Translations under genes and position numbers: made by a program
Shown here: positions 12,303 through 29,638 of the stretch, piece after piece
How positions within the stretch are numbered: position 1 is the stretch's first letter
How the letters are laid out: every line of letters begins with the position of its first letter
IMG/VR virus record: IMGVR_UViG_3300042507_004023
DNA: 64,000 bases
Strand: one strand, 5' to 3'
Origin: a virus
The notes under the pieces: generated by a model
What the model was told of the DNA's origin: nothing
The model's input: the letters and a program-made list of their open reading frames with translations, nothing else
Database searches by the model: none

Positions 12303-13018
12303 GTATCTTCGGCATAAAAAATGCTGACTCAAAACAGATATTAAAAACTCTGCCCTCAGATTGGGCAGATGTTTGTTTTGTAAATCCACCCTGGTGGCGG
12401 ATCGCAAGATATGATGGTAGTCTTGGAACAGAATTAACCTTAGACGAGTATTGCCAGCATTTGATGGAATTTTTTATAGAGGTCAAACGAGTCATAAAAC
12501 CATCAGGATGTGTTTGGCTAACAGGTAATAAAATTAGAAAATCAAATCATCTTCGTTACGCTTCACCAAAGCCTGGTATTGCTAGAACTTTTTCTCGTGT
12601 TTGTGATTATCTTGAAAAAGATGGTTGGACGATTCAGGAGGAAATTGTTTGGCATTTTTCTAAAGGTATGACAGAATCGTTCAAACAAAATGATATAGCA
12701 CCAAACACACATGCTTATATTGGATTGTTGACAAAGAGTAATTACTGCGCTTTTGATCCAAACAAAGTTCATGCAAAATTTAAAGATACAAGTGTTTGGA
12801 CGGATGATGCTCCAAAAGTTTCAAAGTTTTATTCAATATCTCCAAAAATTGCTGAGTCTTGTATTCTAGCCACCTGCCCACCAAGAGGAATTGTGTTAGA
12901 TATCTTTGCAGGAAGCGGAACTTGTGGTATAATCTGTAAGACACACGGACTAAATTATTTGGGTATAGAGATAGATCAAGAAACCGCAAAAATTGCACAG
13001 GATAGGATAACAGATTGA
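12299..13018 (+). CDS. Second beta-class DNA methyltransferase (divergent)
   Basis: VNPPW motif IV, IQEEIVW, SVW, VLDIFAGSGT, GIEID; AT-rich. Confidence 0.8.
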   Translation: MSIFGIKNADSKQILKTLPSDWADVCFVNPPWWRIARYDGSLGTELTLDEYCQHLMEFFIEVKRVIKPSGCVWLTGNKIRKSNHLRYASPKPGIARTFSRVCDYLEKDGWTIQEEIVWHFSKGMTESFKQNDIAPNTHAYIGLLTKSNYCAFDPNKVHAKFKDTSVWTDDAPKVSKFYSISPKIAESCILATCPPRGIVLDIFAGSGTCGIICKTHGLNYLGIEIDQETAKIAQDRITD

Positions 13019-15742: not shown

Positions 15743-16810
15743 ATGAGTGACTTTTTAAAGAGTATGATTCGTGCGTCAGGTAATGAGTTTGCTTCGCTAG
15801 CCGAAGATGGAGTTGAAGGAGATATCACGGGCTTTGTGGATACTGGCTCGTATTCTTTCAACGCTCTTCTGTCAGGCTCGTTGACTGGCGGTATTGCCAA
15901 CAATAAGATTCTAGGTATTGCAGGCGAGTCTGCCACAGGCAAGACCTATTTTGCTTTGGGTATCGCCGCACAGTTCTTGAACGATAATCCCGAAGGAGCG
16001 ATTCTTTACTTTGACTCCGAGCAGGCTGTCACTAGCGACATGATTAAGTCACGCGGACTTGACCCGAATCGCGTTGCCGTATTCCCTGTGGCAACCGTGG
16101 AGCAATTCCGTCATCAGTTGCTGCAAATTATTGATAACTACGGCAAGTTGGATGAGAAGAAGCGTAAGCCGTTCTTTGTGGTGTTGGATTCGCTAGGCAT
16201 GTTGAGCACCAGCAAGGAAACCAACGACACGCTTGAAGGCAAGGAAGTGCGAGACATGACCCGTGCTCAGGTTATCAAGGGTGCGTTCCGTGTGCTTACT
16301 TTGAAGTTGGGTCTGCATAACATTCCTATGATTGTTACGAATCACACCTACGAGGTAGTTGGTGCGTATGTGCCAACCAAGGAGATGGGTGGTGGCACAG
16401 GACTAAAGTATGCGGCTTCAACCATCGTTTATCTTTCCAAGAAGAAGCACAAGGTGGATGACGAAGTGGTTGGCAATATTGTTCATTGCAAACTCTACTA
16501 GGGTCGTCTTACCCGAGAGAATAAGATGATTGATGTTCTTCTAACCTTTGATAAGGGACTTGACCGATACTACGGTTTGGTTGACCTTGCTCTGAAGCAG
16601 GGAGTGTTCAAGAAGGTTTCCACCAAGATTGAATTGCCAAACGGCACAACCGCCTTCGAAAGCCAGATTGTGAAGAATCCAACCAAGTATTTCACCGAAG
16701 AAGTGATGAAGGCTTTGGAAACAGCAGCAGCCAAGGAGTTCAAGTATGGCTCCGACCAGGAAGGAGCAAACACCAATGAACCCTCGGAAACCGTTGAAGC
16801 GGAAGGATGA
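15743..16810 (+). pseudogene. uvsX: RecA-like recombinase UvsX interrupted by one in-frame TAG (16499-16501)
   Basis: [50 protein letters not shown]. The frame continues past the TAG as GRLTRENK...GLDRYYGL, giving 355 codons. Confidence 0.85.
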
Positions 16811-17075
16811 GATAATCGTCTATCCTGAGTTTGAAGCCGCGTTCTTAGGCAACCTGCGTAAGTTTGGTCAGACCATGCCTGTGGCTGTTTATGACTACGA
16901 GAAGTGCTTGGACATTTTGGTGGCGCAGGGTATGGATGTGGTTGATGCCTACGAGTGGTTAGAGGTTAACACTCTAGGCGGCTATCTTGGTGAAGGAACT
17001 CCTGTGCTCGTTAACCGCTGCACTATAGAGGAATTCCACGAGGAGGCAGAACTACATGGCGAAACTTCTGATTAA
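16776..17075 (+). CDS. Conserved phage hypothetical protein
   Basis: ATG after AGGAG; AVYDYEKCLDIL...AYEW.E.NTLGGYLGEGTP family pattern. Confidence 0.75.
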   Translation: MNPRKPLKRKDEIIVYPEFEAAFLGNLRKFGQTMPVAVYDYEKCLDILVAQGMDVVDAYEWLEVNTLGGYLGEGTPVLVNRCTIEEFHEEAELHGETSD

Positions 17076-17745
17076 GTTACCAAGCAGATCGCGTCCGGCT
17101 AAGTTCATGGAGGTATTCAATCTCTATAAGAATATGGCATCCGGCAAGCACGATGTTCGGTTTTTGTGTTCGTTTGATCTTGATGATGCCACTATGAATA
17201 ATCCTGGTATTCGTAACTGGATTGCCAAGCAAGGCGATTCCGTTAAGGCGTTTTGGGGCAATTCAAAAACCAAGATACAAGCCATCAATGCCGACTTGGA
17301 ACACGCAGGAGATTACGATGTTCTCCTGCTAGCATCAGATGATATGATCCCTCAGATGCAAGGCTACGATGATATTATCATGCAGGATATGCAGACCTAC
17401 TATCCTGATGGTGATGGTGTTCTGCACTACAACGATGGTAAGCAGGGAGAACGATTGAATACTTTGTGCATCATGGGCAAGAAGTATTTTGATCGTTTTG
17501 GTTACATCTACAATCCTGAATACATTAGTGTTTATCCTGATAATGAATTTACTGATGTCAGCAGGATTCTAGGAAAAGCCACCTACATCGACAAGGTTAT
17601 CATTCGTCACTTTTGGATAGAGATTGGTGTTGACGCTCTATACATGCGTAACGAGAATCGTGAACTCTACGCTCGTGATGGAGCCTTGTATCAAAAGAGA
17701 AAGGAAGCAAACTTCGGTTTGTCACAACATGCCAACGCCTCCTAA
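17056..17745 (+). CDS. GT-A fold glycosyltransferase-like protein
   Basis: KLPSRSRP.KF, SKTKIQAIN, LLASDDM.P, YNPEY.S...DNEFT. Confidence 0.75.
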   Translation: MAKLLIKLPSRSRPAKFMEVFNLYKNMASGKHDVRFLCSFDLDDATMNNPGIRNWIAKQGDSVKAFWGNSKTKIQAINADLEHAGDYDVLLLASDDMIPQMQGYDDIIMQDMQTYYPDGDGVLHYNDGKQGERLNTLCIMGKKYFDRFGYIYNPEYISVYPDNEFTDVSRILGKATYIDKVIIRHFWIEIGVDALYMRNENRELYARDGALYQKRKEANFGLSQHANAS

Positions 17746-18343
17746 TGAAATCTTACTAAGTGTTCTGATTCTTTCTATTCCCTCTCGTCTTGAGAAGTGT
17801 CTGATTCCAACTTACAATCGTTTGTTGGAGCAGATTGGAAATGAGACCTGCGTTGAGGTTCTAACTCTTGTAGACAACAAGAGCATGAGCATTGGCGAAA
17901 AGCGTCAGGCTTTAATTCAATCTGCTAGAGGTAAGTGGATAGCATTTTTGGATGATGATGACGCGGTATCCGAAGATTATATTGCAACCTTGATTGAAAC
18001 CTTGAAGAATAAGCCTGCCGATGTGATTAGTTTTGAACAGCATTGCTCGGTAAATGGCAGAGAGTTCAAGGTTGATTTCCGTATGGGTAATCCTCACGAA
18101 GGACTTAAGCAGAATCCTGATGGAAGTCTAGGCGATATTAAGCGTCCTCCGTATCACATGTGCGTGTGGGCAACCAAGATCGCAAAGAATATTCCATTCC
18201 GTGCCGTTTCATACGGAGAAGATATTGATTGGTGTATGCGAATGTATCCGTTTGTGACAAGTGAAACTCACCTAGATAAAGTGCTTCACTACTATCAATA
18301 TGATGACAGAACATCGGAAAGTATACAATATGCAAAGCGATAA
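17729..18343 (+). CDS. GT2-like glycosyltransferase
   Basis: LSVLILSIPSR, SIGEKRQ.L...A.GKWIAFLDDDD, GEDIDW. Confidence 0.8.
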   Translation: MPTPPNEILLSVLILSIPSRLEKCLIPTYNRLLEQIGNETCVEVLTLVDNKSMSIGEKRQALIQSARGKWIAFLDDDDAVSEDYIATLIETLKNKPADVISFEQHCSVNGREFKVDFRMGNPHEGLKQNPDGSLGDIKRPPYHMCVWATKIAKNIPFRAVSYGEDIDWCMRMYPFVTSETHLDKVLHYYQYDDRTSESIQYAKR

Positions 18344-19055
18344 GAAGCATCTTCTTTTAAAGTATCCAACTCGTCAGCGTCCATCCAAGTTCATGGCGAA
18401 CTTGAATTCTTACCTTGAGAAATTGTCAGGTAAGCATCAGATAACTTTAGTTGTAAGTATGGACACCGACGACATACTGTGCAACAACGGCGGTATTCAA
18501 AGATTCCTAGACATCAAGAGAAGCGATACGGTTAATGTAATCTACTCTTATGGTGAAAGTAAGGGTAAGATTGCTGCCATCAATCGTGACATCCCGAACA
18601 CTCCTTGGGATATTCTTGTAGCCACAGCGGATGATATGGAACCAATGGAAGACCATTGGGATGATATTATCGTTCAGGATATGTTCCGCGAATTCCCCGA
18701 TCTTTACGGGGCAATCAATTACAATACTGATCCTAGACTAGAAACTAAGATTGACGGCAGACCCGAGGGATGGAAGGGCTTGATTACTCTTCCTGTAATT
18801 GGTAGAAAACTCTACGATAAGTTTGGTTACATCTATCATCCTGATTACATTTCAGAGTCATGTGATGATGAACAAACTATTGTTTACACGCAGTTGGGTG
18901 TTCTAAAGCACATTGACAGAAGACCAATTTTCCACAATTTTAAGCCTTGGCATGATGAGTTGATGATTCGTAACATGCAAATTGGGCAGACCGTTGATAG
19001 AAAAAAGTTTTTGGAAAGAAAAGAAAAGAATTTTGACCTAGAGGTGGCAGTATGA
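18330..19055 (+). CDS. GT-A fold glycosyltransferase-like protein (paralog of 17056-17745)
   Basis: LKYPTRQRP.KF, SKGKIAAIN, VATADDM.P, YHPDY.S...DDEQT. Confidence 0.75.
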   Translation: MQSDKKHLLLKYPTRQRPSKFMANLNSYLEKLSGKHQITLVVSMDTDDILCNNGGIQRFLDIKRSDTVNVIYSYGESKGKIAAINRDIPNTPWDILVATADDMEPMEDHWDDIIVQDMFREFPDLYGAINYNTDPRLETKIDGRPEGWKGLITLPVIGRKLYDKFGYIYHPDYISESCDDEQTIVYTQLGVLKHIDRRPIFHNFKPWHDELMIRNMQIGQTVDRKKFLERKEKNFDLEVAV

Positions 19056-19669
19056 ACTTTTATTCGCAGCAGAGTGAAGATGTTATACTTTGGAAAAAGT
19101 ATTTGAATTATAAGAACGGATTCTTTATTGAACTTGGTGCTATGGACGGAATCAAATATTCCAACACAAAGTTTTTTGAAGATAGTTTGGGTTGGAGAGG
19201 AATACTGATTGAACCTGAAAAGAATCAGTTTCAACGGTTAAGGAGGAATAGACCAAATTGCATCCTTTCCGATTATGCTATTTCGGAAACAGATGGAGAA
19301 GTGGTGTTCAATACTAGAAACGGTGGAGATTCTGGCGGAGGTATTGTTGATACTCACATAGATGAAACTATCCGTGAAGAAGATAATGTTAAACTGATAA
19401 GCAAACCGTTTACAACCTTGCTGAAAGAAGTAGGAAAGCCTGAACGAGTTGATTTGTTTGTGATTGATGTTGAAGGTGGCGAATTAGGAATTCTTAAAAC
19501 TTTTGATTGGTCTATTCCCGTTTATATCATTTGTATTGAAACTCACCCCTCAAACAAGCACTACGAAGAGTGCAAGCAGATTCTAGTAGAAAATGGATTT
19601 GAGTTTGATATGACGGTAGGGATAAACGAAGTTTGGATTAATAAAAACAACAAAAGAGCGGAAGCATGA
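19052..19669 (+). CDS. FkbM-family methyltransferase
   Basis: YSQQSED, FIELGAMDG..YSNT..FE..LGWRGILIEP, IDVEGGE..IL. Confidence 0.9.
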   Translation: MNFYSQQSEDVILWKKYLNYKNGFFIELGAMDGIKYSNTKFFEDSLGWRGILIEPEKNQFQRLRRNRPNCILSDYAISETDGEVVFNTRNGGDSGGGIVDTHIDETIREEDNVKLISKPFTTLLKEVGKPERVDLFVIDVEGGELGILKTFDWSIPVYIICIETHPSNKHYEECKQILVENGFEFDMTVGINEVWINKNNKRAEA

Positions 19670-20325
19670 ATTCTGTTAAACTTAGTATTTGCATTCCTAG
19701 CATTCCTAACAGAATGCGAATGTATCTACAACCTTTATATTCCAAGTTGCTTACTCAGATTGGAGATGCCAAAGATGTGGAAGTTCTGTCTCTAATGGAC
19801 AACAAGATGATGTCTATCGGCAGAAAGAAGTCTCTTCTATTGAGCATGGCAACGGGAAGATATGTGTGCATCATAGACGATGATGACACCGTAGCGGATG
19901 ATTATATTGCAACTTTACGAGAAAAGATTACCGACGATCTAGATGTAGATGTGATTTGCTATAATCAAGAAGCCACAATTCAAGGCAAGACATGGTTGGT
20001 TAAAACAAGTCTGACCCACAATCAAGTTCATCCTTTTGACCAGTTGGCTGTAGATCAAAACGGCAATACAATTCCTTGTAAGCGACCACCGTGGCAATGG
20101 TGTTTATGGAAGCGAGAGATTGCTCAGGCGGTAGCCTTTGGCGATTCTAATTGGGCAGAAGATGCAGCATTTACTCTTGACGCTTGCAAAAAGGCAAAGA
20201 CAGAACTTGTTATTGATAAAGTTATGTGTTACTATAGTTGGTCTCCAACAGTAACTGAAACACAAAGACCGCAGAATCCCGTATCTGTGGAAAACATGGA
20301 AAGAGTGAGGATTAACAATGGCTGA
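19666..20325 (+). CDS. GT2-like glycosyltransferase (paralog of 17729-18343)
   Basis: LSICIPSIP.R, MSIGRKK.LL...ATGRYVCIIDDDD, AEDAAF. Confidence 0.8.
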   Translation: MNSVKLSICIPSIPNRMRMYLQPLYSKLLTQIGDAKDVEVLSLMDNKMMSIGRKKSLLLSMATGRYVCIIDDDDTVADDYIATLREKITDDLDVDVICYNQEATIQGKTWLVKTSLTHNQVHPFDQLAVDQNGNTIPCKRPPWQWCLWKREIAQAVAFGDSNWAEDAAFTLDACKKAKTELVIDKVMCYYSWSPTVTETQRPQNPVSVENMERVRINNG

Positions 20326-21277
20326 AAATGGTGTGATTATTTACATGTCCCGAATGCGGGATGTTCCTCTTTTGTATCGCAGTCTTAGTATGCTTGGATG
20401 GAATTTCAAGCATATCAGAGAATATCCTATTGTGATTTTTCACGATGATATTGATAAGGGAACCATTTCCAATCTTATGGTATCTCTACATCAGAACTTG
20501 GGATTCATTCCAAATCTGAAGTTTGAGCGTTTGGATTTTGTAATGCCTGAATGGGTTTCAGAAGATCCAGCAAAGTATACTGTTCCTTTGGATCAGGCTT
20601 GGATGGGATATCGCCACATGTGCCGTTATCATTCGGGTGGTATTTACCGCGATCCTCGTCTTCTACAATACGATTATTATTGGAGATTAGATTCCGATTC
20701 TTACATCTATTCACCGATCAATTACGATCCGTTTGAATACATGGCAAAGAATGATAAAGAATATGCTTTCATGGCAACCGAAGACGGAGAAGTTCCAAGC
20801 GTTGTTGAAGGACTTTGGGATGAAACTGAGCGGTTTATGAAGACTCACAATATTCCTATGACTAAAGACCTTGAAGACAGCATGGTTGACGGAAAGTGGA
20901 GTTGTCGGTTGTTCTATACAAACTTTGAAATTGCCAAGTTCTCGTTCTTCAGAAGCGAAAAGTATATGGCATACTTTGACCAGTTAGATCAGACAGGCAA
21001 CATCTTCTATAAGAGATGGGGCGATGCTCCAATCCATTGGCTAGGTGTAAAGATGTTGTTAGACCCAAGCAAGGTTTGGGCGGTTAACGATATCACCTAT
21101 CAGCACAATGCTTGGATACGCAACATGAGTGCTTTGCCCAACAAGGAAATCCCCGAGAAGATTATGAACTTGGTTGATGGAAATCTTCAACATCGTTACA
21201 GCCGTCTAGAAAGAATCACTTTTGGTTTGAATAGATATAGAGCAGGCGGTCCTGATTGGTTGAATTGGGGCGAGTGA
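20318..21277 (+). CDS. KRE2/MNT1-like alpha-1,2-mannosyltransferase (GT15-like)
   Basis: GYRHMCRYHSG, YDYYWRLD, FYTNFEIAK..FFRS..Y..YF..LD..G.IFYKRWGDAP: the Kre2-family signature. Confidence 0.85.
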   Translation: MAENGVIIYMSRMRDVPLLYRSLSMLGWNFKHIREYPIVIFHDDIDKGTISNLMVSLHQNLGFIPNLKFERLDFVMPEWVSEDPAKYTVPLDQAWMGYRHMCRYHSGGIYRDPRLLQYDYYWRLDSDSYIYSPINYDPFEYMAKNDKEYAFMATEDGEVPSVVEGLWDETERFMKTHNIPMTKDLEDSMVDGKWSCRLFYTNFEIAKFSFFRSEKYMAYFDQLDQTGNIFYKRWGDAPIHWLGVKMLLDPSKVWAVNDITYQHNAWIRNMSALPNKEIPEKIMNLVDGNLQHRYSRLERITFGLNRYRAGGPDWLNWGE

Positions 21278-21292
21278 GAAAGGATTTATATT

Positions 21293-22186
21293 ATGGAAAA
21301 CGCTGCAATTGTATACATGACCCGAAAGAACGATCTGTGGATTTTTAAGCACAGCATCAATTTCTTGTATTCTAATTTCAACAAGGATGCAAACTACCCT
21401 GTAGTTGTTTTCTATGATGATTTGAGCAAGGCAGATATAGCAAATCTGCTAACAGAGTTTAGTCTTTCCTTTGGGTTCCTACCAAACATAAAGTTTGAAA
21501 AGTTGGAATTCTCTCTGCCTGAAGGAATATCTGAAGATCCGGCTCTCTATACTCTTCCTCTCACTCAATTCCGAATGGGATATCGTCATATGTGTCGTTT
21601 CTATGGCGGTCAAATCTTTAATCATCCCGCTTTGGCAAAGTATAAGTGGTATATGAGATTGGATTCTGATTCGTTTATCATGTCCAAAATCACCCGTGAT
21701 CCATTTGAGGTCATGCGAGTTAATGGATATCAATACGCTTTCATGGAACGAGAAGAATACGATGCTCCTTGGGCTTGCGAAGGCTTGTGGGATAGCACAA
21801 AGAAGTTTATTGAAGCAAACAAATCCACAGTTCTAAATTCAGAATTTGAATGGAACATGGAAGTCTACAATACTAATTTTGAAATTGTAGACATGGATTT
21901 CTTCCGTGACAACAACTATCAAAACTATTTCAATCATATTGAAGAAACGGGCAACATCTTCTATAAGCGTTGGGGAGATCATTGCATTCGTTGGTTGGGC
22001 ATCAAGATGTTTATGAATCCCGAAAGAGTTTGGTGTCTACGCGATTTCTGCTATCAGCATGGCGGAGATATTAAGAATATAGAACTCGTTGATATGGATT
22101 GTGTTGCTCGTGAACCTGAACCGTTTAAGGGAGGAATGGTTAAGGCTTTAGAGCAAAGAGTTCAGGGTCTTGCAGTTAATGGATAA
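21293..22186 (+). CDS. Second KRE2/MNT1-like mannosyltransferase (GT15-like)
   Basis: GYRHMCRFYGG, YKWYMRLDSD, YNTNFEI.D..FF, GNIFYKRWGD. Confidence 0.82.
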   Translation: MENAAIVYMTRKNDLWIFKHSINFLYSNFNKDANYPVVVFYDDLSKADIANLLTEFSLSFGFLPNIKFEKLEFSLPEGISEDPALYTLPLTQFRMGYRHMCRFYGGQIFNHPALAKYKWYMRLDSDSFIMSKITRDPFEVMRVNGYQYAFMEREEYDAPWACEGLWDSTKKFIEANKSTVLNSEFEWNMEVYNTNFEIVDMDFFRDNNYQNYFNHIEETGNIFYKRWGDHCIRWLGIKMFMNPERVWCLRDFCYQHGGDIKNIELVDMDCVAREPEPFKGGMVKALEQRVQGLAVNG

Positions 22187-22189
22187 TCC

Positions 22190-22999
22190 ATGAATCTTGT
22201 ATTAGGCAGCACATCTCAACTGTCTCGTTATTTTCCTGATAACTACGCAAAGGTTTCAGCAAGAGAATTGGATTTAGATGCTCTAACCAAAACTAGGTGG
22301 GATGCAGTATACATTTGTTTTGCCGAGCAAAGAACTTATCTAGCAAATGCCATAGACGAGAATACTCGTAATATGTTTTGGAATACTAATGTAGATAAGA
22401 CTCTACAAATTATAGAGAGACTGCAAGAAGTAACAGATAAGATTGTGTATTACTCTACAGCGGAACTGTGGAACAACACATCAGGCCCTGTGAAGATTAC
22501 AGACCCTGTTTCTTTTCACAAGAACAATTACACCGAGTCAAAGTGGCATATAACGCAAATTCTCAGAGACAAGGAAAAGTATCCTAAAGTTTCCATTCTC
22601 TATCCTTTCAACTTCAACAGCATTCACCGAGGCGATCAATACTTGTTTGGTAAGATTTTTAAATCCATCGTAAACAAGCAGCCCGTCACCATAGGGGATG
22701 TTCAGTATTACCGAGAACTGTTGCATCCTCAAATGGTGGTTGATGCTAGCATAAACGCTACAGCAGGGGTGGATGAGATTGTTGGTTCGGGTAGAGTGGT
22801 TTATGTGAAAGATTTCATAGAATTACTTTACATGTATTCTGGATTGAGTTATAATGATATGGTTACAGAAGATAATACCAGAGAGTCAATCTATCGGAAA
22901 AACATTTTCTACTCTGCTGTGCGAAACGAACAGTATGATGTTGATCGTTTGATTGATCTTACCATAAGCGAATTAACAAACCCGGCGGTGACACAATGA
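22190..22999 (+). CDS. Divergent GDP-mannose 4,6-dehydratase-like SDR
   Basis: STAE and YTESK catalytic residues; FNFNSIHRG...FGKI and IGDVQYYRELLH correspond to Gmd FNHESPRRG...RKI and LGNLDAKRDWGH. Confidence 0.6.
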   Translation: MNLVLGSTSQLSRYFPDNYAKVSARELDLDALTKTRWDAVYICFAEQRTYLANAIDENTRNMFWNTNVDKTLQIIERLQEVTDKIVYYSTAELWNNTSGPVKITDPVSFHKNNYTESKWHITQILRDKEKYPKVSILYPFNFNSIHRGDQYLFGKIFKSIVNKQPVTIGDVQYYRELLHPQMVVDASINATAGVDEIVGSGRVVYVKDFIELLYMYSGLSYNDMVTEDNTRESIYRKNIFYSAVRNEQYDVDRLIDLTISELTNPAVTQ

Positions 23000-24165
23000 A
23001 TAAACCAATAAATCTAGTTCAAGACACTATAGATCAACAAGACATATCATCTTTAATCTCTTGGCTTAACACTAATCCTCGTTTAACGAAAGCCACTAGA
23101 ACCGTTGAGTTTGAGCAGGAGTGGAGCAATTGGTTGGGTTGCAAGTATTCGGTATTTGTAAACTCGGGATCGTCTGCAAACTTGGCAATATTCTATGCTT
23201 TGATTGTAAGCAATCGTTTAAAGAACAAGAAGGTTGTGTTCCCATGTTTGTCTTGGGTGACAACAGTTGCTCCTGCAATTCAGTTGGGGTTAGAGCCGAT
23301 TCTTTGCGGAACCGACAGAGCCAACTTGGGAATTGATGTTGAGGAGTTTGAGGAAATTTGCAAGCGAGAAAATCCTGCTGCTCTAATGGTAGTTCATGCT
23401 TTAGGATTTCCAAACGACATGAAGCGCATTCAAGAAATCTGTGAGAAGTATGGAGTGATACTTCTTGAGGATTCCTGTGAGAGTGTTGGAACAACCGTGG
23501 ATGGCAAGAAAACAGGAACTTTGAGTCTTGCTGCGTCTTTCAGCACTTACTATGGGCATCACTTCTCTACCATAGAAGGCGGGTTGATTTCAACCGATGA
23601 TTACGAACTGTATAATATTCTAAAGAGCATTCGTTCTCACGGATGGTCTAGAGATTTGGATGAAGTTTCTCGTATCAATCTTCAACTGAAGTATGGTATT
23701 GATGACTTCCGTAACTTCTACACCTTCTACTATCCAGGATTCAATCTTCGCTCAACCGATCTGCAAGCGTATATCGGTATACAGCAACTCAAGAAACTTG
23801 ATCGGTTCTGTGATAAGCGATGGAATAATCTTAAACTATACGATAAGTATATCGTAAATCCACATTGGAAGATTTCTGTGGATCAGTTTGAGTATGTTTC
23901 AAACTTTGCCTATCCCATCATTCACCCAAGAGTGCCTGAGATTGTTAAGAAACTAGCCAAAAATTCTGTGGAGTGTCGTCCACTAATTGCGGGTAGTATT
24001 TCCCGACAGCCGTTCTTCTACGAGAGATACGGTTCCAAGAAGCACCCGTTTGCGGATGAGATACACGATTACGGAATGTATGTTCCCAACAATCCTGATA
24101 TGACCGAAGATCAAATTAAGTTTGTATCTGACATAGTAAACACATTTACAGTAAGCAAGGATTAA
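22996..24165 (+). CDS. DegT/DnrJ-fold PLP enzyme, ColD-like 3-dehydratase
   Basis: FVNSGSSANL, EDSCES.G, SFSTYYGHHFSTIEGG (His in place of the Schiff-base Lys), GFNLRSTDLQA. Confidence 0.8.
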   Translation: MNKPINLVQDTIDQQDISSLISWLNTNPRLTKATRTVEFEQEWSNWLGCKYSVFVNSGSSANLAIFYALIVSNRLKNKKVVFPCLSWVTTVAPAIQLGLEPILCGTDRANLGIDVEEFEEICKRENPAALMVVHALGFPNDMKRIQEICEKYGVILLEDSCESVGTTVDGKKTGTLSLAASFSTYYGHHFSTIEGGLISTDDYELYNILKSIRSHGWSRDLDEVSRINLQLKYGIDDFRNFYTFYYPGFNLRSTDLQAYIGIQQLKKLDRFCDKRWNNLKLYDKYIVNPHWKISVDQFEYVSNFAYPIIHPRVPEIVKKLAKNSVECRPLIAGSISRQPFFYERYGSKKHPFADEIHDYGMYVPNNPDMTEDQIKFVSDIVNTFTVSKD

Positions 24166-24168
24166 TCC

Positions 24169-25176
24169 ATGAAAATTGATAAAGTCGTCTTTAGTTGCTC
24201 GGAAACATTCAGTCCATTTTGGAACATACAATCTAAGGTATGGAAGACTAAGTTTGGAGTGGAGCCGGTATGTCTTTTGTTTGGAGATAAAAAGAGTTGT
24301 AAGGTATCTGAAGAATACGGAGAAGTTATAGAACAGAAGTATGATCCTGATCTTCCACAAATCATTCAAATACAATTTTCTAAGTTTTATCATCCAAAGG
24401 TTGAACCAGAAACAACATGGATAATCGGTGACATAGATCAAATTCCTTTGCAGACCGAATATTTTTTAAATGATTTGCCGAATGTTCCTGACGATGCGTA
24501 TGCTCATTTGAACTATACTCTTACTGCTCAGATGCGTCCAGGTATTCGTCCTGATGGCATGCCAGGCATTTCGCCCGACACTTTCTTGAAGGTTGGTGCA
24601 TATGTTAATGGCGGCTATGATCTTCCTGGTCATTATCATGTGGCTAAGGGTAAATTGTATGAAAATCTATTCTTCCGTGATAAGAGTTTCAAAGAAGTTG
24701 TGCAGGGAGTTATTGATGCTCGTAGACACGGTATGGTTACTGAGGATGCAAGAAACACTCTCAATAAAAGTATTCATGGTGATTATTGGGTCGCTGAAGA
24801 AGGATACACATCCGAACAGATTTGGTATGGGTTGAAGTCTAAGAGAATCACTGGTGGTTTCTTCGGTAAAGAATATCACATCTTTGATGGTAAGATTGAT
24901 CGTGTTGGTAATGGAACTTGGTTCGATCCAAATGGATGGACAGAAACCGACATAAAGAATATGGCAGAAAGCAATAAAACTACACCAGAAAATATTGTGC
25001 AATACCTGAAGCAAAACAATATAAAGAAAAGAAGCATGCAATGGACAGGTAAAGAATATCTTTATGATGTTGAAAAATTAAAGAACAAGGGTTACATGGA
25101 TATACATTGTTATCGTCCATATCACGAACAAGAGGGGCCTATGATGCGTATTCTTGAAATCGCTGGCATGATCTAA
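24169..25176 (+). CDS. Hypothetical protein, possibly glycosyltransferase-like
   Basis: MKIDKVV.SC...FW, IIGDIDQIPL (DxD), DIHC.RPY; located inside the glycan island. Confidence 0.6.
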   Translation: MKIDKVVFSCSETFSPFWNIQSKVWKTKFGVEPVCLLFGDKKSCKVSEEYGEVIEQKYDPDLPQIIQIQFSKFYHPKVEPETTWIIGDIDQIPLQTEYFLNDLPNVPDDAYAHLNYTLTAQMRPGIRPDGMPGISPDTFLKVGAYVNGGYDLPGHYHVAKGKLYENLFFRDKSFKEVVQGVIDARRHGMVTEDARNTLNKSIHGDYWVAEEGYTSEQIWYGLKSKRITGGFFGKEYHIFDGKIDRVGNGTWFDPNGWTETDIKNMAESNKTTPENIVQYLKQNNIKKRSMQWTGKEYLYDVEKLKNKGYMDIHCYRPYHEQEGPMMRILEIAGMI

Positions 25177-26588
25177 TGAATTTGTTTTGCATATCAGGAA
25201 GTTCTGGTGTAGGCAAAACCACAATATCTAAGATCATTCAAAGTATTCTTGGGTCAAAAGATTGTGTTTGTCTAAGTGGTGATGATCTTCACAAGTGGGA
25301 AAGAGGCGATCCCATTTGGAAGACCATTACACATTTGAATCCTGATGCAAATAATTTAGAATTGGGTTATTCTCATCTTGTTGAATTAAAGAATGGTAAT
25401 CCTATACAAAGAAGCCACTATAATCACGATACAGGAAAATTTGATTCTTCTGTCAGAATTGATTCTAAACCGTATATCATTTACGAAGGGCTTCATGCTC
25501 TTTATCACAAACCTACTGTTCAAATTTCAGATTTAAACATTTATGTGGATACTGATGAAGATTTAAAAGTCGAATGGAAAGTTAAACGCGATACAACTAA
25601 AAGAGGCCATACTAAAGCCGAGGTTCTAGAAACCATAAAGCGCAGAAAAGATGATGAAGACCGATTCATAAAGCCACAGAAACAGAATGCCGATATTGTA
25701 GTTAAGTTTAGTAAAGATCAGCACTCTTCCATCAAACTGTTATACTTTTGCACTACTGACAAGGGGCAAAAATTCATGGAACTCGTTAAGGGGTTCTACG
25801 AATCAACGAATAACTTTTTACAAATTTGTAAATGGTTGGGATTAGATCCCGCTTTAGTTCAAGGCAGAGGCGGAAATGTTTCTGTCAAGTCGGATGGCGG
25901 AATGATTATCAAATCATCAGGCGCAAAGATGAGTGATATAAATTTGTATCATGGATTTTGTGTTTGTGATATTCGAAAGGAACCTTTACCAAAATTTGCA
26001 GACGAAAAACATTACAATCTGTATATCAAAGGATGTAAAAAGATAGGGGACAGTAATCCTTCTATGGAAACCGGATTCCATATCTCCATTCCAAATAAAG
26101 TTGTTATCCATACCCATCCAATACACCTTAATTCCATACTTTGTAGTTTGGAAGGAGAAGAAGTATTGAAAACTCTTTTCAAAGATATTGCGTATCAATT
26201 TGTTCCTTACACCACACCAGGATATGAATTGGTAAATCGTATAACACCAAATCTGATAAACACCAACATCATTTTTTTGCAAAATCATGGGCTGATAGTC
26301 GGAGCAGAAACTCACGAAGAAGCAATAGAACTAACCGAAAAAATTAACAACCGATGTAAACGCTGGTTGGTTACTCATGTTGACAGTTTCTTGGATTACG
26401 AGGATTCTAAAATAAATATGCCGCTTTTTCCAGATGCCGCAGTTTTTCTAAACGAAATGTCTTCAACAAACAACTACATACTACATCTGATGACTGGAGC
26501 CTGCTTGACTCCAAACTTTTTGAGTTCTGAAGAAGTGAGAAAGTTAAACAGTATGTCGTCGGAACAATTCAGAAAGGCTTTAGTATGA
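25176..26588 (+). CDS. Uridine kinase/phosphoribulokinase-like domain fused to a class II aldolase domain
   Basis: N-terminus: GSSGVGKTT, GDDLHKW, YNHDTG, IYEGLH, KVKRD..KRG. C-terminus: QGRGGNVSVK, PSMETGFH, HTHP, LQNHGL. Confidence 0.85.
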   Translation: MNLFCISGSSGVGKTTISKIIQSILGSKDCVCLSGDDLHKWERGDPIWKTITHLNPDANNLELGYSHLVELKNGNPIQRSHYNHDTGKFDSSVRIDSKPYIIYEGLHALYHKPTVQISDLNIYVDTDEDLKVEWKVKRDTTKRGHTKAEVLETIKRRKDDEDRFIKPQKQNADIVVKFSKDQHSSIKLLYFCTTDKGQKFMELVKGFYESTNNFLQICKWLGLDPALVQGRGGNVSVKSDGGMIIKSSGAKMSDINLYHGFCVCDIRKEPLPKFADEKHYNLYIKGCKKIGDSNPSMETGFHISIPNKVVIHTHPIHLNSILCSLEGEEVLKTLFKDIAYQFVPYTTPGYELVNRITPNLINTNIIFLQNHGLIVGAETHEEAIELTEKINNRCKRWLVTHVDSFLDYEDSKINMPLFPDAAVFLNEMSSTNNYILHLMTGACLTPNFLSSEEVRKLNSMSSEQFRKALV

Positions 26589-27409
26589 AGATAATTGTGC
26601 CAATGGCAGGAACAGGCAATCGTTTTGTCGAGAAGGGATATGCAGACCCTAAGCCCCTTATTCGCGTAAACGGTAAACGAATCATAGAATACATTCTAGA
26701 GATGTTTGATCCAAACGATGAAATTGTATTCATCTGTAACGATACCCACCTAGCAACAACTGATATGCGAGATGTGCTTCTATCTCTGAAGCCAAACGCC
26801 ACGATTGTATCCATGCCTCAACATAAGTTGGGCCCTGTGTGGACGGTTAAGGCAGTATACGAACACATCAAAGATGATGAAGAAGTAATTGTTTCTTACT
26901 GCGACAATCCTCACCTTTGGGACATGGAGCATTTTAAGGAACATGTTAACTACTACAAGATGGATGGTTGCATTCTTACTCACTCTGGATTTCATCCACA
27001 CACCTTGGCTCAAACAAAGATGGCGTTTGTTAAAGATGTGCCGGGAACTCCGTATATTACTGAGATTAAAGAAAAGGCGTGTTACACCAACGATCCGATG
27101 AATGAACATGCTTCTACCGGCATGTATTACTTTAGACGGGGTGCAGATATCAAGAAATATTTTGATCTTGCTATGGAGAGGGGAATTCAGTATAATGGCG
27201 AATTCTATGTTACTTTGGTCTACAATCTGCTGGTTCAAGACGGATTGAAAGTTGGTTATTACGACACTCCGTTTGTTACCGTGTTTGGAACTCCTGAAGA
27301 AGTGGAAAATTTTGAGGCTTGGGCAACCATAGTTAAAGGTAAGCAGGTAAAGTCGGTGGATGATCTAATTAACTGCTATCTGTATTGGGACTCGTATCAC
27401 AATGACTAA
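26585..27409 (+). CDS. Sugar-phosphate nucleotidyltransferase family protein
   Basis: IVPMAGTGNRF...GY..PKPLI.V.GK, SYCD, ASTGMYYF, NGEFYV..VYN, FGTPEE. Confidence 0.85.
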   Translation: MKIIVPMAGTGNRFVEKGYADPKPLIRVNGKRIIEYILEMFDPNDEIVFICNDTHLATTDMRDVLLSLKPNATIVSMPQHKLGPVWTVKAVYEHIKDDEEVIVSYCDNPHLWDMEHFKEHVNYYKMDGCILTHSGFHPHTLAQTKMAFVKDVPGTPYITEIKEKACYTNDPMNEHASTGMYYFRRGADIKKYFDLAMERGIQYNGEFYVTLVYNLLVQDGLKVGYYDTPFVTVFGTPEEVENFEAWATIVKGKQVKSVDDLINCYLYWDSYHND

Positions 27410-28168: not shown

Positions 28169-28192
28169 CTTTTCGGGGATTTGGGGTATACT
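28165..28192 (+). promoter_or_regulatory. Sigma70-like early promoter for gp41
   Basis: TTGACT-16 nt-TATACT. Confidence 0.6.
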
Positions 28193-28213
28193 GATTGTTC
28201 GAGAACCCATCTG

Positions 28214-29638
28214 ATGTCTGCTGACAGAACAGAAATTTTAATTCTTCGTTCCCTGCTCCACGATGAGGAGTTTGGTAGAAAAGTTCTACCGTTCTTGAAG
28301 CCCGAGTATTTCAATGAGCGTGACGAGCGGGTTATCTACGATTGTGTGAGCGAGTTTTACACTCAATACAACGCCAAGCCAAGTGTTGAAAGTCTGCTTA
28401 TCGACTTGGGAAAGCGCGATGATTTAAGCGAAACCGAGTTCAAATCTATTCGAGAAATCATCAAGAGTTTTAAGACACATGATGCTCCCGACACACAATG
28501 GTTGCTAGACAACACAGAAAACTTCTGTAAAGAAAAGGCACTCTATAATGGCATCATGGAATCCATTCAGATTATTGATGGAAAGTCCAAAGACAAAACT
28601 AAAACTGCTATTCCAAGCATTCTTTCTACTGCTCTTGCAGTTAGTTTTGATTCTCATATCGGTCACGATTTCATTGGTGATGCAGACAAGCGATACGACT
28701 TCTATCACACCGTAGAGAAGCGTATTCCGTTTGATCTTGACCTGATGAACAAAATTACCAACAATGGAACTCCATACAAAACTCTGAATGTGTGTCTCGC
28801 GGGCACGGGCGTGGGTAAGTCTTTGTTCCTCTGTCACCATGCTGCAAATTGTCTGATGCAAGGTAAGAATGTGCTGTATATAACTTGCGAAATGGCGGAA
28901 GAGCGTATTGCTGAACGCATTGATGCCAATCTGATGGATACTAGTTTAGATGATCTGAAGGCTTTGCCCAAGGATATCTACGACCGCAAAATGAAGCGTA
29001 TTATGGAACAGACTACGGGGAAACTGATTATCAAAGAGTATCCGACAGCGAGTGCTTCAGTAATGCACTTCAAGCATCTGTTGGATGAACTGCGTTTGAA
29101 GAAGAACTTTGTTCCTGAAATTATTTTTATCGACTACTTAAACATTTGTGCATCTTCTCGTATGAAACAGAGTGCTACAGTAAACTCATATACATTCATC
29201 AAGGCTATTGCAGAGGAACTGCGCGGTCTTGCGGTGGAGACTGGTGTTCCCATCTTTACGGCAACTCAAACTAATCGTTCTGGCTTCTCTAGCACGGATG
29301 TTGAGTTGACAGATACTAGTGAATCGTTCGGTCTACCACAAACCGCAGATTTCATGTTTGCTTTGGTTTCAACCGAAGAACTTCAGGGTCTTGGTCAGAT
29401 TATGGTGAAGCAGTTGAAGAACCGTTATGCTGATCCTGCATCTAACCGACGCTTCGTTGTCGGAATTGACCGCAGCAAAATGAAACTGTTTGACTTGGAT
29501 GAATCGGCTCAACGCGGAATTATTAATATTACCGAGTCCAAGGATACGGATGATGAAGACTCGGGAGAATTTAAAACTTTCCGTGAACGCATGGGTGAGA
29601 AGTTTAATAAAAAGAGAGATTTTGCTGATTGGTCTTGA
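28214..29638 (+). CDS. 41: Replicative DNA helicase (T4 gp41)
   Basis: VLPFLKPEYF, LAGTGVGKS, ITCEMAEERIAERID, IKEYPT, IDYLNI, AEELRGLAVE, SESFGLP.TAD, KQLKNRY. Confidence 0.96.
   Translation: MSADRTEILILRSLLHDEEFGRKVLPFLKPEYFNERDERVIYDCVSEFYTQYNAKPSVESLLIDLGKRDDLSETEFKSIREIIKSFKTHDAPDTQWLLDNTENFCKEKALYNGIMESIQIIDGKSKDKTKTAIPSILSTALAVSFDSHIGHDFIGDADKRYDFYHTVEKRIPFDLDLMNKITNNGTPYKTLNVCLAGTGVGKSLFLCHHAANCLMQGKNVLYITCEMAEERIAERIDANLMDTSLDDLKALPKDIYDRKMKRIMEQTTGKLIIKEYPTASASVMHFKHLLDELRLKKNFVPEIIFIDYLNICASSRMKQSATVNSYTFIKAIAEELRGLAVETGVPIFTATQTNRSGFSSTDVELTDTSESFGLPQTADFMFALVSTEELQGLGQIMVKQLKNRYADPASNRRFVVGIDRSKMKLFDLDESAQRGIINITESKDTDDEDSGEFKTFRERMGEKFNKKRDFADWS

What the first reader, a model, noticed from the sequence alone, without database searches (positions are those of the whole stretch)
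20318..22186. Tandem fungal-type KRE2/MNT1 (GT15) mannosyltransferases in a bacteriophage
Both proteins carry the Kre2 signature series (YRHMCR, Y.WYWR, NFEI, FY.RWGD). GT15 is known mainly as fungal Golgi alpha-1,2-mannosyltransferases that extend O-mannose on Ser/Thr using GDP-Man. These copies lack the type II membrane anchor, so they are soluble. This suggests eukaryote-like O-mannan extension on phage proteins and raises the question of the direction of gene transfer.
Basis: partly seen in the sequence, partly recalled or inferred. Interest (0 to 1): 0.75.

Follow-up and report, generated by a model that had tools for sequence, protein, structure and literature searches.

The report
Soluble GT15 mannosyltransferase pair in phage
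An uncultured T4-like lake phage carries two adjacent, intact genes of the GT15 (Kre2/Mnt1) sugar-transferase family, which the literature treats as fungal. They belong to a rare anchor-less prokaryote/phage branch and sit in a conserved 11 kb phage gene island that probably builds a methylated, mannose-containing glycan in the host cytoplasm.

Summary
ORFs 20318-21277 (319 aa) and 21293-22186 (297 aa) are 45% identical paralogues. Both match Pfam Glyco_transf_15 far above threshold. The model of copy 1 matches only GT15 crystal structures at high score, and the Kre2p catalytic and metal residues are present. Neither has a membrane anchor.

"Fungal-type" is misleading. The genes carry a canonical DSD motif where fungi have E-P-x. 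They form one phage clade whose nearest relatives are prokaryotic genes in cell-surface glycan clusters. Nesting within crown fungi is rejected (p-AU 9e-10). Deeper relations between domains stay unresolved.

GT15 is rare outside eukaryotes. It gave no hit in 50,697 phage records, matched one giant-virus protein in BFVD, and was found in 2 of 201 genomes of one archaeal class.

The pair lies in an all-soluble island (seven GT-A enzymes, an FkbM methylase, a ColD-like GDP-sugar dehydratase, a kinase-aldolase fusion and a nucleotidyltransferase). The island sits between uvsX and gp41 in every related phage contig. FkbM and GT15 are also adjacent or fused in archaea and bacteria.

Best reading: these are GDP-mannose-dependent retaining mannosyltransferases that extend a phage-made glycan. 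The target is most likely virion proteins, less likely the host envelope, and is untested. First readers of this scan had already noted the island in this genome.

The parts
20318..21277 (+). GT15 copy 1 (319 aa, 'A' lineage). Soluble Kre2/Mnt1-family GT-A glycosyltransferase with a DSD motif.
   Evidence: Pfam PF01793 E 6.2e-49. PDB 1S4N E 1e-33. AF2 pLDDT 91 and Foldseek to 1S4O at E 4e-24, TM 0.75. dN/dS 0.045 against the L006 orthologue.
21293..22186 (+). GT15 copy 2 (297 aa, 'B' lineage). A paralogue that lacks the C-terminal tail of about 25 aa found in copy 1.
   Evidence: Pfam PF01793 E 4.4e-41. 45% identical to copy 1. Falls in a separate starred sub-clade inside the phage clade.
19052..19669 (+). 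FkbM-family methyltransferase, the probable functional partner of the GT15 enzymes.
   Evidence: Pfam PF05050 E 7e-18. FkbM lies next to or within three genes of GT15 in Methanoperedens, the sister-group contig and Parcubacteria. Fusion proteins FkbM+GT15 (P0088) and methyltransferase+GT15 (P0092) exist.
17056..17745 (+). GT-A-like glycosyltransferase of a phage-only family (GTA_unk1). 18300-19055 is its paralogue.
   Evidence: No Pfam hit. Atlas clusters are 100% Uroviricota, and some are labelled glycosyltransferase. Distant tblastn hits fall on annotated glycosyltransferases of Streptomyces phages and on HTVC008M.
17729..18343 (+). GT2-family glycosyltransferase (GT2a). The start codon is inferred.
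   Evidence: Pfam PF00535 E 1.2e-8.
18300..19055 (+). Second phage-only GT-A-like protein (GTA_unk2).
   Evidence: Conserved in all related loci. It shows the same sequence pattern as 17056-17745.
19666..20325 (+). GT2-family glycosyltransferase (GT2b). Its stop overlaps the start of GT15 copy 1.
   Evidence: Pfam PF00535 E 3e-6. Overlap seen.
22190..22999 (+). Short-chain dehydrogenase/epimerase-like protein (269 aa).
   Evidence: Weak NCBIfam GalE match, E 5.5e-6.
22996..24165 (+). ColD-like PLP/PMP enzyme (GDP-4-keto-6-deoxy-D-mannose 3-dehydratase type). A marker of GDP-sugar chemistry in the island.
   Evidence: PDB 2GMS/3GR9 ColD at E 6.5e-60, against 1.8e-38 for the CDP-sugar E1 enzyme. 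G-H-H aligns with the S-H-H of ColD where aminotransferases have Lys.
24169..25176 (+). GT8/GT6-like GT-A protein of a phage-only family (unk335).
   Evidence: Atlas feature and structure neighbours are 100% Uroviricota clusters; the nearest named families are GT8 and GT6.
25176..26588 (+). Phosphoribulokinase/uridine-kinase domain fused to a class II aldolase/epimerase domain.
   Evidence: NCBIfam PRK match E 2.8e-57 and aldolase matches. Pfam PRK plus Aldolase_II in the orthologues.
26585..27409 (+). Sugar-phosphate nucleotidyltransferase.
   Evidence: Pfam NTP_transf_3 E 5.5e-11.
15743..16810 (+). uvsX (RecA-like), the left border of the island. It has one in-frame TAG at 16499-16501.
28181..29638 (+). 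gp41-type DnaB helicase, the right border of the island.
   Evidence: PHROG 19 at E 3.6e-124. It borders the island in all loci.
54883..60114 (-). 1743-aa fibre protein with about 45 Gly-x-Thr collagen-like triplets. A speculative acceptor for O-glycosylation.
   Evidence: Runs of G-A-T at residues 45-98, 198-248, 281-310 and 340-357. Pfam Collagen and Phage Tail Collar. There is no direct link to the island, and the pure G-x-T run is absent from the complete relative G002.

Best explanation
The two genes encode soluble, cytoplasmic members of glycosyltransferase family GT15. This is a GT-A fold, metal-dependent, retaining family. They belong to a prokaryote/phage branch that keeps a canonical DxD motif. 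Most likely each uses GDP-mannose, or a GDP-linked manno-configured sugar, to add an alpha-linked mannose to a sugar acceptor. They would then act as two successive or alternative elongation steps in an assembly line encoded by the 11 kb island between uvsX and gp41. That island holds seven GT-A enzymes, an FkbM O-methyltransferase, a ColD-type GDP-sugar dehydratase and a sugar-activation module. Shown here: family membership, fold, conservation of catalytic residues, solubility, purifying selection, conservation of the island, and GT15-FkbM linkage across domains. Inferred: the donor, the linkage, and the acceptor. I favour phage virion proteins as the acceptor (about 45%), with fibres carrying Gly-x-Thr collagen-like repeats as one candidate. 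Host lipid-linked envelope glycans come second (about 25-30%).
For: Family and fold are supported. The Kre2p residues Tyr220, Arg245, Glu247 (Asp here), Asp361 and His388 align to copy 1 residues Y98, R123, D125, D236 and H263, and are invariant or nearly so in a 16-sequence alignment. Their roles are taken from PMC11077754. The guanine-contacting Arg and Asp (CaMnt1 R118 and D149) align with R12 and D43 of copy 1 and R11 and D42 of copy 2 at the same 30/31-residue spacing. A ColD-type enzyme next door shows that GDP-mannose-derived chemistry runs in the infected cell. Relatives without ColD still keep GT15, which points to plain GDP-mannose as the donor. None of the 15 island proteins has a transmembrane segment. 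The island lies at the same place in all 24 related loci, with a constant core and variable accessory enzymes. Copy 1 has dN/dS 0.045. GT15 is adjacent to or fused with FkbM in cellular glycan clusters. Three of the seven GT families are virus-only in the Atlas and recur in phages of unrelated hosts, which favours a phage-borne acceptor. A fibre rich in Gly-x-Thr lies in the window, and Thr in such repeats is O-glycosylated by a cytoplasmic GT in C. difficile BclA3 (PMC7157674).
Against: There is no biochemical data for any prokaryotic or phage GT15. Asn148 of CaMnt1, a guanine contact, is His in copy 1 and Tyr in copy 2, so donor specificity could differ. The island lies in the replication module with no exact T4 late-promoter motif, and the promoter and terminator scans are at chance level, so timing does not point to virion assembly. 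The pure G-x-T run is missing from the 98%-complete relative G002, which has the island and two GT15 genes. In cells, GT15 sits in clusters with ABC or Wzx exporters, which fits a lipid-linked acceptor equally well. The host is unknown.
Confidence: 0.6

Rival explanations
1. Host-envelope remodelling. The island enzymes, including the GT15 pair, act at the cytoplasmic face on the host's undecaprenyl-linked O-antigen, capsule or S-layer glycan precursors. The host's own exporters then display an altered surface glycan that blocks superinfection or stops progeny being trapped on debris.
For: The nearest cellular GT15 genes sit in surface-polysaccharide clusters with ABC-transporter or Wzx genes or in an archaeal glycan cluster. 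LPS-type genes in aquatic T4-like phages are usually interpreted this way (PMC7029224). The island lies among early/middle replication genes with no late-promoter motif.
Against: The island has no initiating phosphoglycosyltransferase, flippase, polymerase, exporter or any membrane protein. Three GT families are virus-only and shared by phages of very different hosts. A fixed island conserved across a whole lytic lineage is unlike known seroconversion modules, a comparison that rests on my own knowledge.
Confidence: 0.27
2. Recent capture of a fungal (eukaryotic) Golgi KRE2/MNT1 gene by the phage, followed by loss of the anchor. This is the literal 'fungal-type' reading.
For: The solved structures and named sequences with best scores are fungal. 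The literature treats PF01793 as fungus-only (PMC5225481).
Against: Nesting of the phage clade in crown fungi is rejected, with delta lnL 121 and p-AU 9e-10. The phage proteins have DxD rather than E-P-x. The nearest sequences are anchor-less prokaryotic proteins. The FkbM-GT15 gene pair is shared with archaeal and bacterial clusters.
Confidence: 0.03
3. DNA hypermodification. The GT15 enzymes extend sugars on modified bases of the phage DNA, as T-even glucosyltransferases and other phage DNA glycosyltransferases do.
For: The island sits in the replication module, and phage GTs that decorate DNA with glycans are known (Pyle et al. 2024, cited in PMC12619734).
Against: The 98%-complete relative G002 has no thymidylate-synthase-family gene (PF00303), the family that makes hydroxymethyl-pyrimidines. 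Seven GTs, a methylase and a dideoxy-sugar pathway are far more than any known DNA glycan needs. An earlier follow-up on the same genome found no DNA-hypermodification pathway (note e1-5859457; I did not re-test it).
Confidence: 0.03
4. Same family but a different reaction. The enzymes use another donor, such as GDP-6-deoxy-manno sugars made in the island, or act as mannosyl-phosphate transferases like yeast Mnn6/Ktr6, which is also GT15.
For: The guanine-contact Asn is replaced by His or Tyr. The island makes modified GDP-sugars. Mnn6 is listed as GT15/PF01793 in PMC5225481.
Against: Relatives that lack ColD and the SDR keep GT15. All residues that hold the donor mannose and the metal are conserved.
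Confidence: 0.15

Closest known systems
Saccharomyces cerevisiae Kre2p/Mnt1p (PDB 1S4N/1S4O/1S4P) and Candida albicans Mnt1, GT15 alpha-1,2-mannosyltransferases
   Same: They share the Pfam family and the GT-A fold (TM 0.75, 28-29% identity). The Tyr, Arg, acidic, Asp and His active-site set is conserved, as are the SNFE and RWGD motifs.
   Different: The phage proteins have no type II anchor or stem and would act in a bacterial cytoplasm rather than the Golgi lumen. They have D-S-D where the yeast enzymes have E-P-D. A guanine-contact Asn is replaced by His or Tyr. Their acceptor is unknown.
Aspergillus fumigatus CmsA/Ktr4 (PDB 7BOO/7BOP), core-mannan synthase, and S. cerevisiae Ktr4p (5A07)
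   Same: They are GT15 enzymes with equally strong structural matches, E about 1e-23. CmsA/Ktr4 is titled a core-mannan synthase in its PDB entry, so GT15 enzymes are not restricted to protein O-glycans.
   Different: They are eukaryotic, membrane-anchored and have E-P-x.
Uncharacterised prokaryotic GT15 genes (Candidatus Methanoperedens, Hermodarchaeota-labelled contig, Parcubacteria, Verrucomicrobiales, Planctobacterium marinum)
   Same: They are anchor-less proteins of about 300 aa with a DxD motif, 35-42% identical to the phage proteins. They are adjacent to or fused with FkbM methyltransferases, next to GT2, SDR and DegT genes. They include the sister group of the phage clade.
   Different: They sit in a cellular context with exporters. 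No activity is known for any of them. They are rare and patchy: 2 of 201 genomes in the Methanoperedens class.
Virus-encoded cytoplasmic glycosylation machineries (chlorovirus and mimivirus capsid/fibril glycans; mycobacteriophage capsid and tail-tube O-glycans, Freeman et al. 2023)
   Same: In each case the virus brings its own soluble glycosyltransferases, and in giant viruses also sugar-nucleotide and methylation enzymes, to decorate virions independently of host secretory pathways (PMC9614988 listed; PMC12619734; details rest on my own knowledge).
   Different: As far as I could find, none of these systems is reported to use GT15. Virion glycosylation is not shown for this phage.
LPS-type gene clusters of aquatic T4-like phages (cyanomyophages, pelagimyophages)
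   Same: They are sets of glycosyltransferase and sugar-nucleotide genes in T4-like aquatic phages with unproven targets (PMC7029224).
   Different: Those clusters lie mostly in the hypervariable host-recognition region and are dominated by GT8. This island has a fixed position between uvsX and gp41 with a conserved core and contains GT15.

Membership tests
CAZy GT15 / Pfam PF01793 Glyco_transf_15 | A sequence match to the family HMM above the curated threshold, over the whole catalytic domain. | tested here: met
   Scores are 167.6 and 141.8 bits against a cut-off of 25, covering HMM positions 55-324 of 325.
CAZy GT15 / Pfam PF01793 Glyco_transf_15 | A GT-A fold that is closest to solved GT15 structures rather than to GT8, GT24 or GT6. 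| tested here: met
   For the copy 1 model (pLDDT 91), the top 11 Foldseek hits are all Kre2p, CmsA/Ktr4 or Ktr4p (E 4e-24 to 9e-22, TM 0.73-0.76). The next hits are UGGT and GT8 at E 1e-8 and TM about 0.4. Copy 2 was not modelled; it is 45% identical to copy 1.
CAZy GT15 / Pfam PF01793 Glyco_transf_15 | Active-site residues of Kre2p: Tyr220, Arg245, the metal ligands Glu247 and His388, and Asp361. | tested here: met
   Y98, R123, D236 and H263 are invariant, and D125 replaces Glu247 conservatively. All are present in both copies. Their roles come from PMC11077754.
CAZy GT15 / Pfam PF01793 Glyco_transf_15 | Non-canonical E-P-D metal motif in place of DxD, a hallmark of the characterised fungal members. 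| tested here: not met
   Both copies read D-S-D. Of 116 rows in the prokaryote/phage clade, 102 read D-x-D/H. Of 53 rows in the fungal clade, 39 read E-P-x.
CAZy GT15 / Pfam PF01793 Glyco_transf_15 | Type II membrane topology with an N-terminal anchor and stem, located in the Golgi lumen. This is a feature of the fungal members, not of the CAZy family as such. | tested here: not met
   The domain starts at residue 2-3, and the highest 19-residue hydropathy means are 0.61 and 0.85.
CAZy GT15 / Pfam PF01793 Glyco_transf_15 | Retaining transfer of mannose from GDP-mannose, forming an alpha-1,2 linkage. | not testable with these tools
   Only indirect evidence is available: conserved donor-binding residues and GDP-sugar enzymes next door.
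Phage seroconversion / O-antigen modification modules | Membrane-embedded components such as Gtr-type transferases and flippases, Wzy-type or acyltransferase proteins, or an initiating phosphoglycosyltransferase. | tested here: not met
   None of the 15 island proteins has a hydrophobic segment at transmembrane level, and no such Pfam families were hit.
T-even-type DNA glycosylation | A hydroxymethyl-pyrimidine synthesis gene of the thymidylate-synthase family, plus a DNA glycosyltransferase. | tested here: not met
   PF00303 is absent from the 98%-complete relative G002, while it was found in 10 of 14 control genomes. The window's own full genome is not held, so this test is indirect.
Virus-encoded virion glycosylation systems | Glycan demonstrated on virion proteins and dependent on virus-encoded GTs. 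| not testable with these tools
   Only candidates are available: soluble phage-specific GTs and a Gly-x-Thr fibre.

The most novel reading that the evidence does not exclude
A whole lineage of T4-like lake phages builds, entirely in the bacterial cytoplasm, an O-methylated oligomannose-type glycan capped with dideoxyhexose on its own virion fibres, using GT15 enzymes. That would be the first case of phage virion mannosylation and the first activity assigned to the prokaryote/phage DxD branch of GT15. This branch, rather than fungi, may then represent the ancestral form from which the eukaryotic Golgi KRE2/MNT1 family arose. A sister relation of the phage and fungal clades is not rejected (p-AU 0.50).
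Probability: 0.15. Interest if true: 0.8.

Novelty: new variant of a known kind. Interest (0 to 1): 0.55.

Why it matters
GT15 is treated in the literature as a fungal Golgi family; PMC5225481, for example, found PF01793 only in fungi among the plants, animals and fungi it surveyed. This finding shows a coherent, anchor-less, DxD-bearing branch in archaea, bacteria and one phage lineage, coupled to FkbM methyltransferases, and no member of that branch has been characterised. In the phage the pair is part of a large, conserved and self-contained glycan factory. If the product decorates virions, phage virion glycosylation would extend from actinobacteriophages to T4-like phages of freshwater bacteria, with a eukaryote-like mannose chemistry. 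If the product alters the host envelope, the island would be the best-defined case of the long-suspected LPS genes of aquatic myophages. Either way the two soluble enzymes are easy targets for expression and would give the first activity for non-eukaryotic GT15.

Tried and rejected
- **Phage record searches.** tblastn of both copies against 50,697 phage records gave nothing, even at E 0.01. Megablast of the island also gave nothing.
- **Own assembly.** It is not held, so searches in the phage's own genome were impossible. I used the 98%-complete relative G002 instead.
- **Late promoter.** The T4 late-promoter motif TATAAATA occurs only twice in the window, at chance level, and not in the island. 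The sigma-70 and terminator scans are at chance level. Expression timing is therefore undetermined.
- **Cyanophage host.** No psbA was found in three relatives. The host stays unknown.
- **DNA glycosylation.** Set aside because PF00303 is absent from G002.
- **G-x-T fibre co-occurrence.** A pure run of five G-x-T triplets is present in the window and its nearest fragment G001 but absent from G002, G003 and G004. This candidate acceptor is not supported by co-occurrence.
- **Other collagen-like protein.** The one at 40928-42058 has Lys, Arg or Gln at the Y position, not Thr.
- **AU test of phage plus all fungi.** Uninformative, p 0.50.
- **Literature.** Searches for GT15 or PF01793 in phages, viruses or archaea found no relevant report.
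- **Census limits.** The prokaryote pattern scan used only two peptide patterns, so its count of 13 loci is a lower bound.
Full report
**Observation.** Two ORFs lie at the stated place on the + strand: 20318-21277 (319 aa) and 21293-22186 (297 aa). The first ATG overlaps the stop of the upstream gene. The second follows 15 bp after the first stop, behind an AAGGA site. The next gene starts 4 bp after the second stop. The pair is therefore part of a tightly coupled operon. Both proteins match Pfam PF01793 (Glyco_transf_15) at E 6.2e-49 and 4.4e-41, against a gathering score of 25 bits. Both matches run from HMM position 55 to the end and begin at residue 2-3 of the protein. The two proteins are 45% identical (E 5e-92).

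**The window is a phage.** It encodes T4-type DNA polymerase (50% identical to gp43 of cyanomyophages), sliding clamp, clamp loader, primase, gp41-type helicase, ribonucleotide reductase, tail fibres and seven tRNAs. Close relatives are metagenomic contigs of 177-189 kb.

**Family and fold.** phmmer finds yeast Kre2p/Mnt1p (PDB 1S4N) at E 1e-33, then A. fumigatus CmsA/Ktr4 and yeast Ktr4p. An AlphaFold2 model of copy 1 has mean pLDDT 91.4.
- Its eleven best Foldseek matches in the PDB are all GT15 structures, with E 4e-24 to 9e-22 and TM about 0.75.
- The next families (UGGT/GT24, GT8-type xylosyltransferase, GT6) follow only at E 1e-8 and TM about 0.4.

**Active-site residues.** I derived the PDB chain numbering from the printed alignment, with an offset of 94 that places Glu247 in the E-P-D motif. 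On that numbering, Kre2p Tyr220, Arg245, Glu247, Asp361 and His388 correspond to Y98, R123, D125, D236 and H263 of copy 1. All are invariant or nearly so in an alignment of phage, archaeal, bacterial and fungal members, and all are present in copy 2. Their roles (metal ligands Glu and His; Arg and Asp at the donor; Tyr at the reaction centre) are taken from the C. albicans Mnt1 paper PMC11077754. The same paper names Arg118 and Asp149 as guanine contacts. Bridged through a Lipomyces GT15 sequence with identical 30/31-residue spacing, these align with R12 and D43 of copy 1 and R11 and D42 of copy 2. Asn148 is His in copy 1 and Tyr in copy 2.

**What differs from the fungal enzymes.**
- Neither protein has an anchor or stem, and none of the 15 proteins of the surrounding island has a transmembrane-grade segment.
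- Both copies read D-S-D where characterised fungal enzymes read E-P-D, a motif the fungal papers stress as non-canonical.
- In a 239-row tree, 102 of the 116 rows in the prokaryote/phage clade read D-x-D/H. Of the 53 rows in the clade holding the named fungal sequences, 39 read E-P-x.

**Distribution.**
- A word-indexed search of 5.8 billion proteins found 143 relatives. The closest 60 or so are unnamed metagenome proteins, followed by proteins from Candidatus Methanoperedens, an uncultured archaeon and Parcubacteria. Fungi appear only at the bottom of the list.
- An exhaustive HMMER search of 1.84 billion cluster representatives found 2,885 proteins at E <= 0.001. They include long proteins with two or three GT15 domains, and fungal and animal entries.
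- No phage record out of 50,697 matched either copy.
- In BFVD only one viral protein, from an environmental Megaviridae genome, is clearly GT15-like.
- A pattern scan of one genome per prokaryotic species confirmed 13 loci. This is a lower bound, because only two patterns were used. The organisms include Methanoperedens, a Hermodarchaeota-labelled contig, Verrucomicrobiales, Chlamydiia, Kiritimatiellaeota, Lysobacterales and Planctobacterium marinum.
- An HMM search of 201 genomes of the Methanoperedens class found the family in 2. It was found in none of 14 control genomes.
- IMG/VR holds 19 loci, all syntenic with the window.

**Phylogeny.** The trees were a FastTree of 239 domains and an IQ-TREE (LG+C20+F+G4 by PMSF) of 64 selected domains.
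- All phage-context sequences form one clade with support 99. The selected 'phage' group also includes nine metagenome proteins whose context I did not check.
- Both window copies lie inside this clade, in different starred sub-clades.
- Some relatives carry two 'A' copies instead of A plus B, so duplication happened more than once within the lineage.
- The sister of the phage clade (support 99) is a small group that includes the Hermodarchaeota-labelled contig and a contig where GT15 sits with FkbM, GT1, an ABC transporter pair and an acyltransferase.
- Holding the phage clade together with four crown fungal sequences costs 121 log-likelihood units (p-AU 9e-10). A recent capture from fungi is therefore rejected.
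- Holding the phage clade and the whole fungal clade on one side of a branch costs only 0.37 units (p-AU 0.50). The deep backbone, and with it the direction of ancient inter-domain transfer, is unresolved.
- The groups for the AU tests were named after the tree had been seen.

**Genomic context.** The pair lies in an island of about 11 kb between uvsX (15743-16810) and the gp41 helicase (28181-29638). Its genes, in order, are:
- a phage-only GT-A family member (17056);
- a GT2 gene;
- a paralogue of the first gene;
- an FkbM methyltransferase;
- a second GT2 gene;
- the two GT15 genes;
- an SDR;
- a PLP/PMP enzyme;
- a GT8-like phage-only GT-A (24169);
- a phosphoribulokinase-type kinase fused to a class II aldolase/epimerase;
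- a nucleotidyltransferase;
- a 155-aa protein.

The PLP/PMP enzyme matches ColD, the GDP-4-keto-6-deoxy-D-mannose 3-dehydratase, at E 6.5e-60, against 1.8e-38 for the CDP-sugar E1 enzyme. It has G-H-H where ColD has S-H-H and aminotransferases have the Schiff-base Lys. This agrees with first-reader note e1-5859461.

The same island, at the same position, is present in all 24 related loci. The constant core is the two GTA_unk genes, GT2a, at least one GT15, usually FkbM, unk335, the kinase-aldolase fusion, the nucleotidyltransferase and unk155. The second GT15, GT2b, ColD and the SDR are variable.

**Selection and allele exchange.** Copy 1 is under strong purifying selection, with dN/dS 0.045 against the L006 orthologue. 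For the other pairs dS is saturated, with dN 0.13-0.22. Copy 1 is 97% identical between the window and L006, but copy 2 is only 70% identical between the same two phages. Gene order around them also differs, which suggests allele exchange at the variable end of the island.

**A conserved partnership.** In a Methanoperedens chromosome segment flanked by ribosomal protein L11 and SecE genes, the gene order is DegT, TPP enzyme, SDR, DegT, GT2, GT2, FkbM, GT15. In the sister-group contig, FkbM is the immediate neighbour of GT15. In Parcubacteria it is three genes away, inside a Wzx-type cluster. Single proteins fusing FkbM or another SAM methyltransferase to GT15 exist, P0088 and P0092. The pairing of GT15 with a methyltransferase is thus conserved from cells to the phage, and it predicts O-methylated mannosides as products. 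The phage island looks like a cellular surface-glycan cluster stripped of every membrane step.

**Mechanism.** Shown here: membership of GT15, the fold, an intact active site, solubility, selection, conserved context and FkbM linkage. The following steps are inferred.
- **Donor and reaction.** The enzymes are probably retaining, divalent-metal-dependent transferases that use GDP-mannose. Supporting points are conserved guanine, mannose and metal contacts, a GDP-mannose-consuming ColD next door, and GT15 retained in relatives without ColD.
- **Role of the two copies.** They may add successive or alternative mannoses.
- **Acceptor.** I favour phage virion proteins at about 45%. No membrane component is present. 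Three of the seven GT families are seen only in viruses and recur in phages of hosts as different as Streptomyces and Pelagibacter. The window also encodes a 1743-aa fibre with about 45 Gly-x-Thr triplets, the kind of repeat that a cytoplasmic GT O-glycosylates on Thr in C. difficile BclA3 (PMC7157674).
- **A related lead.** Another agent's note (e1-5859487) reports a late GT2-TPR gene beside a fibre gene elsewhere in this genome. I could not reach that region.
- **Counter-evidence.** The pure G-x-T run is absent from the complete relative G002, which has the island. No late promoter lies in the island. The cellular relatives work in exporter-linked pathways. Remodelling of host envelope glycans, the usual reading of LPS genes in aquatic myophages (PMC7029224), therefore remains a serious rival at about 27%.
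- **DNA glycosylation.** This is unlikely, because no thymidylate-synthase-family gene is present in G002.

**Comparison and novelty.** The proteins are GT15 members by sequence, fold and active site. They fail two features of the characterised fungal members, the E-P-D motif and type II topology, and neither of these defines the CAZy family. I found no paper that mentions GT15 or PF01793 in a phage, and none that characterises a prokaryotic member. One comparative study reports PF01793 only in fungi among the eukaryotes it surveyed (PMC5225481). JGI's automatic annotation already labels some of the phage homologues 'alpha 1,2-mannosyltransferase', so the similarity is visible in databases but has not been discussed. 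I class the finding as a new variant of a known kind. It is of moderate interest as it stands, and of high interest if the glycan proves to decorate virions or if the DxD branch proves ancestral to the eukaryotic family.

Noticed in passing
window 15743-16810 (+): uvsX is interrupted by a single in-frame TAG at 16499-16501. The frame then continues to a full RecA-like length of 355 codons. Orthologues in relatives are an uninterrupted 350 aa. Another first-reader note already flags this.
   Followed up: partly
window 21293-22186 versus L006:11702-12592: Between the window and its close relative L006, GT15 copy 1 is 97% identical in protein but copy 2 only 70%. Gene order around them also differs (ColD, FkbM and GT2b are shuffled). 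The outer part of the island seems to exchange alleles, much as O-antigen loci do.
   Followed up: partly
window 54883-60114 (-): A 1743-aa fibre protein has a Cys-rich N-terminus followed by about 45 Gly-x-Thr triplets, including 16 consecutive G-A-T, and a Phage Tail Collar domain. The same repeat is found in the nearest fragment G001 but not in G002.
   Followed up: partly
window 22996-24165 (+): The PLP/PMP enzyme is ColD-like (E 6.5e-60 to PDB 2GMS) and has His in place of the Schiff-base Lys. This implies a GDP-colitose-type 3,6-dideoxyhexose branch in the phage.
   Followed up: yes
P0088, P0092; L038:9156-10951; L040:2093-4088: Metagenome proteins fuse an FkbM or SAM methyltransferase domain to GT15. 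FkbM is also the direct neighbour of GT15 in Methanoperedens and in the sister-group contig. This is a conserved but uncharacterised two-enzyme module.
   Followed up: partly
P0132, P0133, P0136, P0140, P0165, P0200 (metagenome proteins of 1000-1500 aa): Very long proteins carry two or three GT15 domains each and form their own clade together with an annelid (Owenia) sequence. Their origin, whether protist, animal or giant virus, is unknown.
   Followed up: no
window 25176-27409 (+): A phosphoribulokinase-like kinase fused to a class II aldolase/epimerase is translationally coupled to a nucleotidyltransferase. The pair is conserved in nearly all related loci, and the activated sugar it makes is unassigned.
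   Followed up: no
L039 (Verrucomicrobiales contig) 10001-13149: In a Verrucomicrobiales MAG a 465-aa GT15 is followed by a second, weak GT15-like gene and a FUT8-like (alpha-1,6-fucosyltransferase N-terminal catalytic) gene. All are embedded among transposases, so this looks like a small island of eukaryote-style GTs in a bacterium.
   Followed up: no
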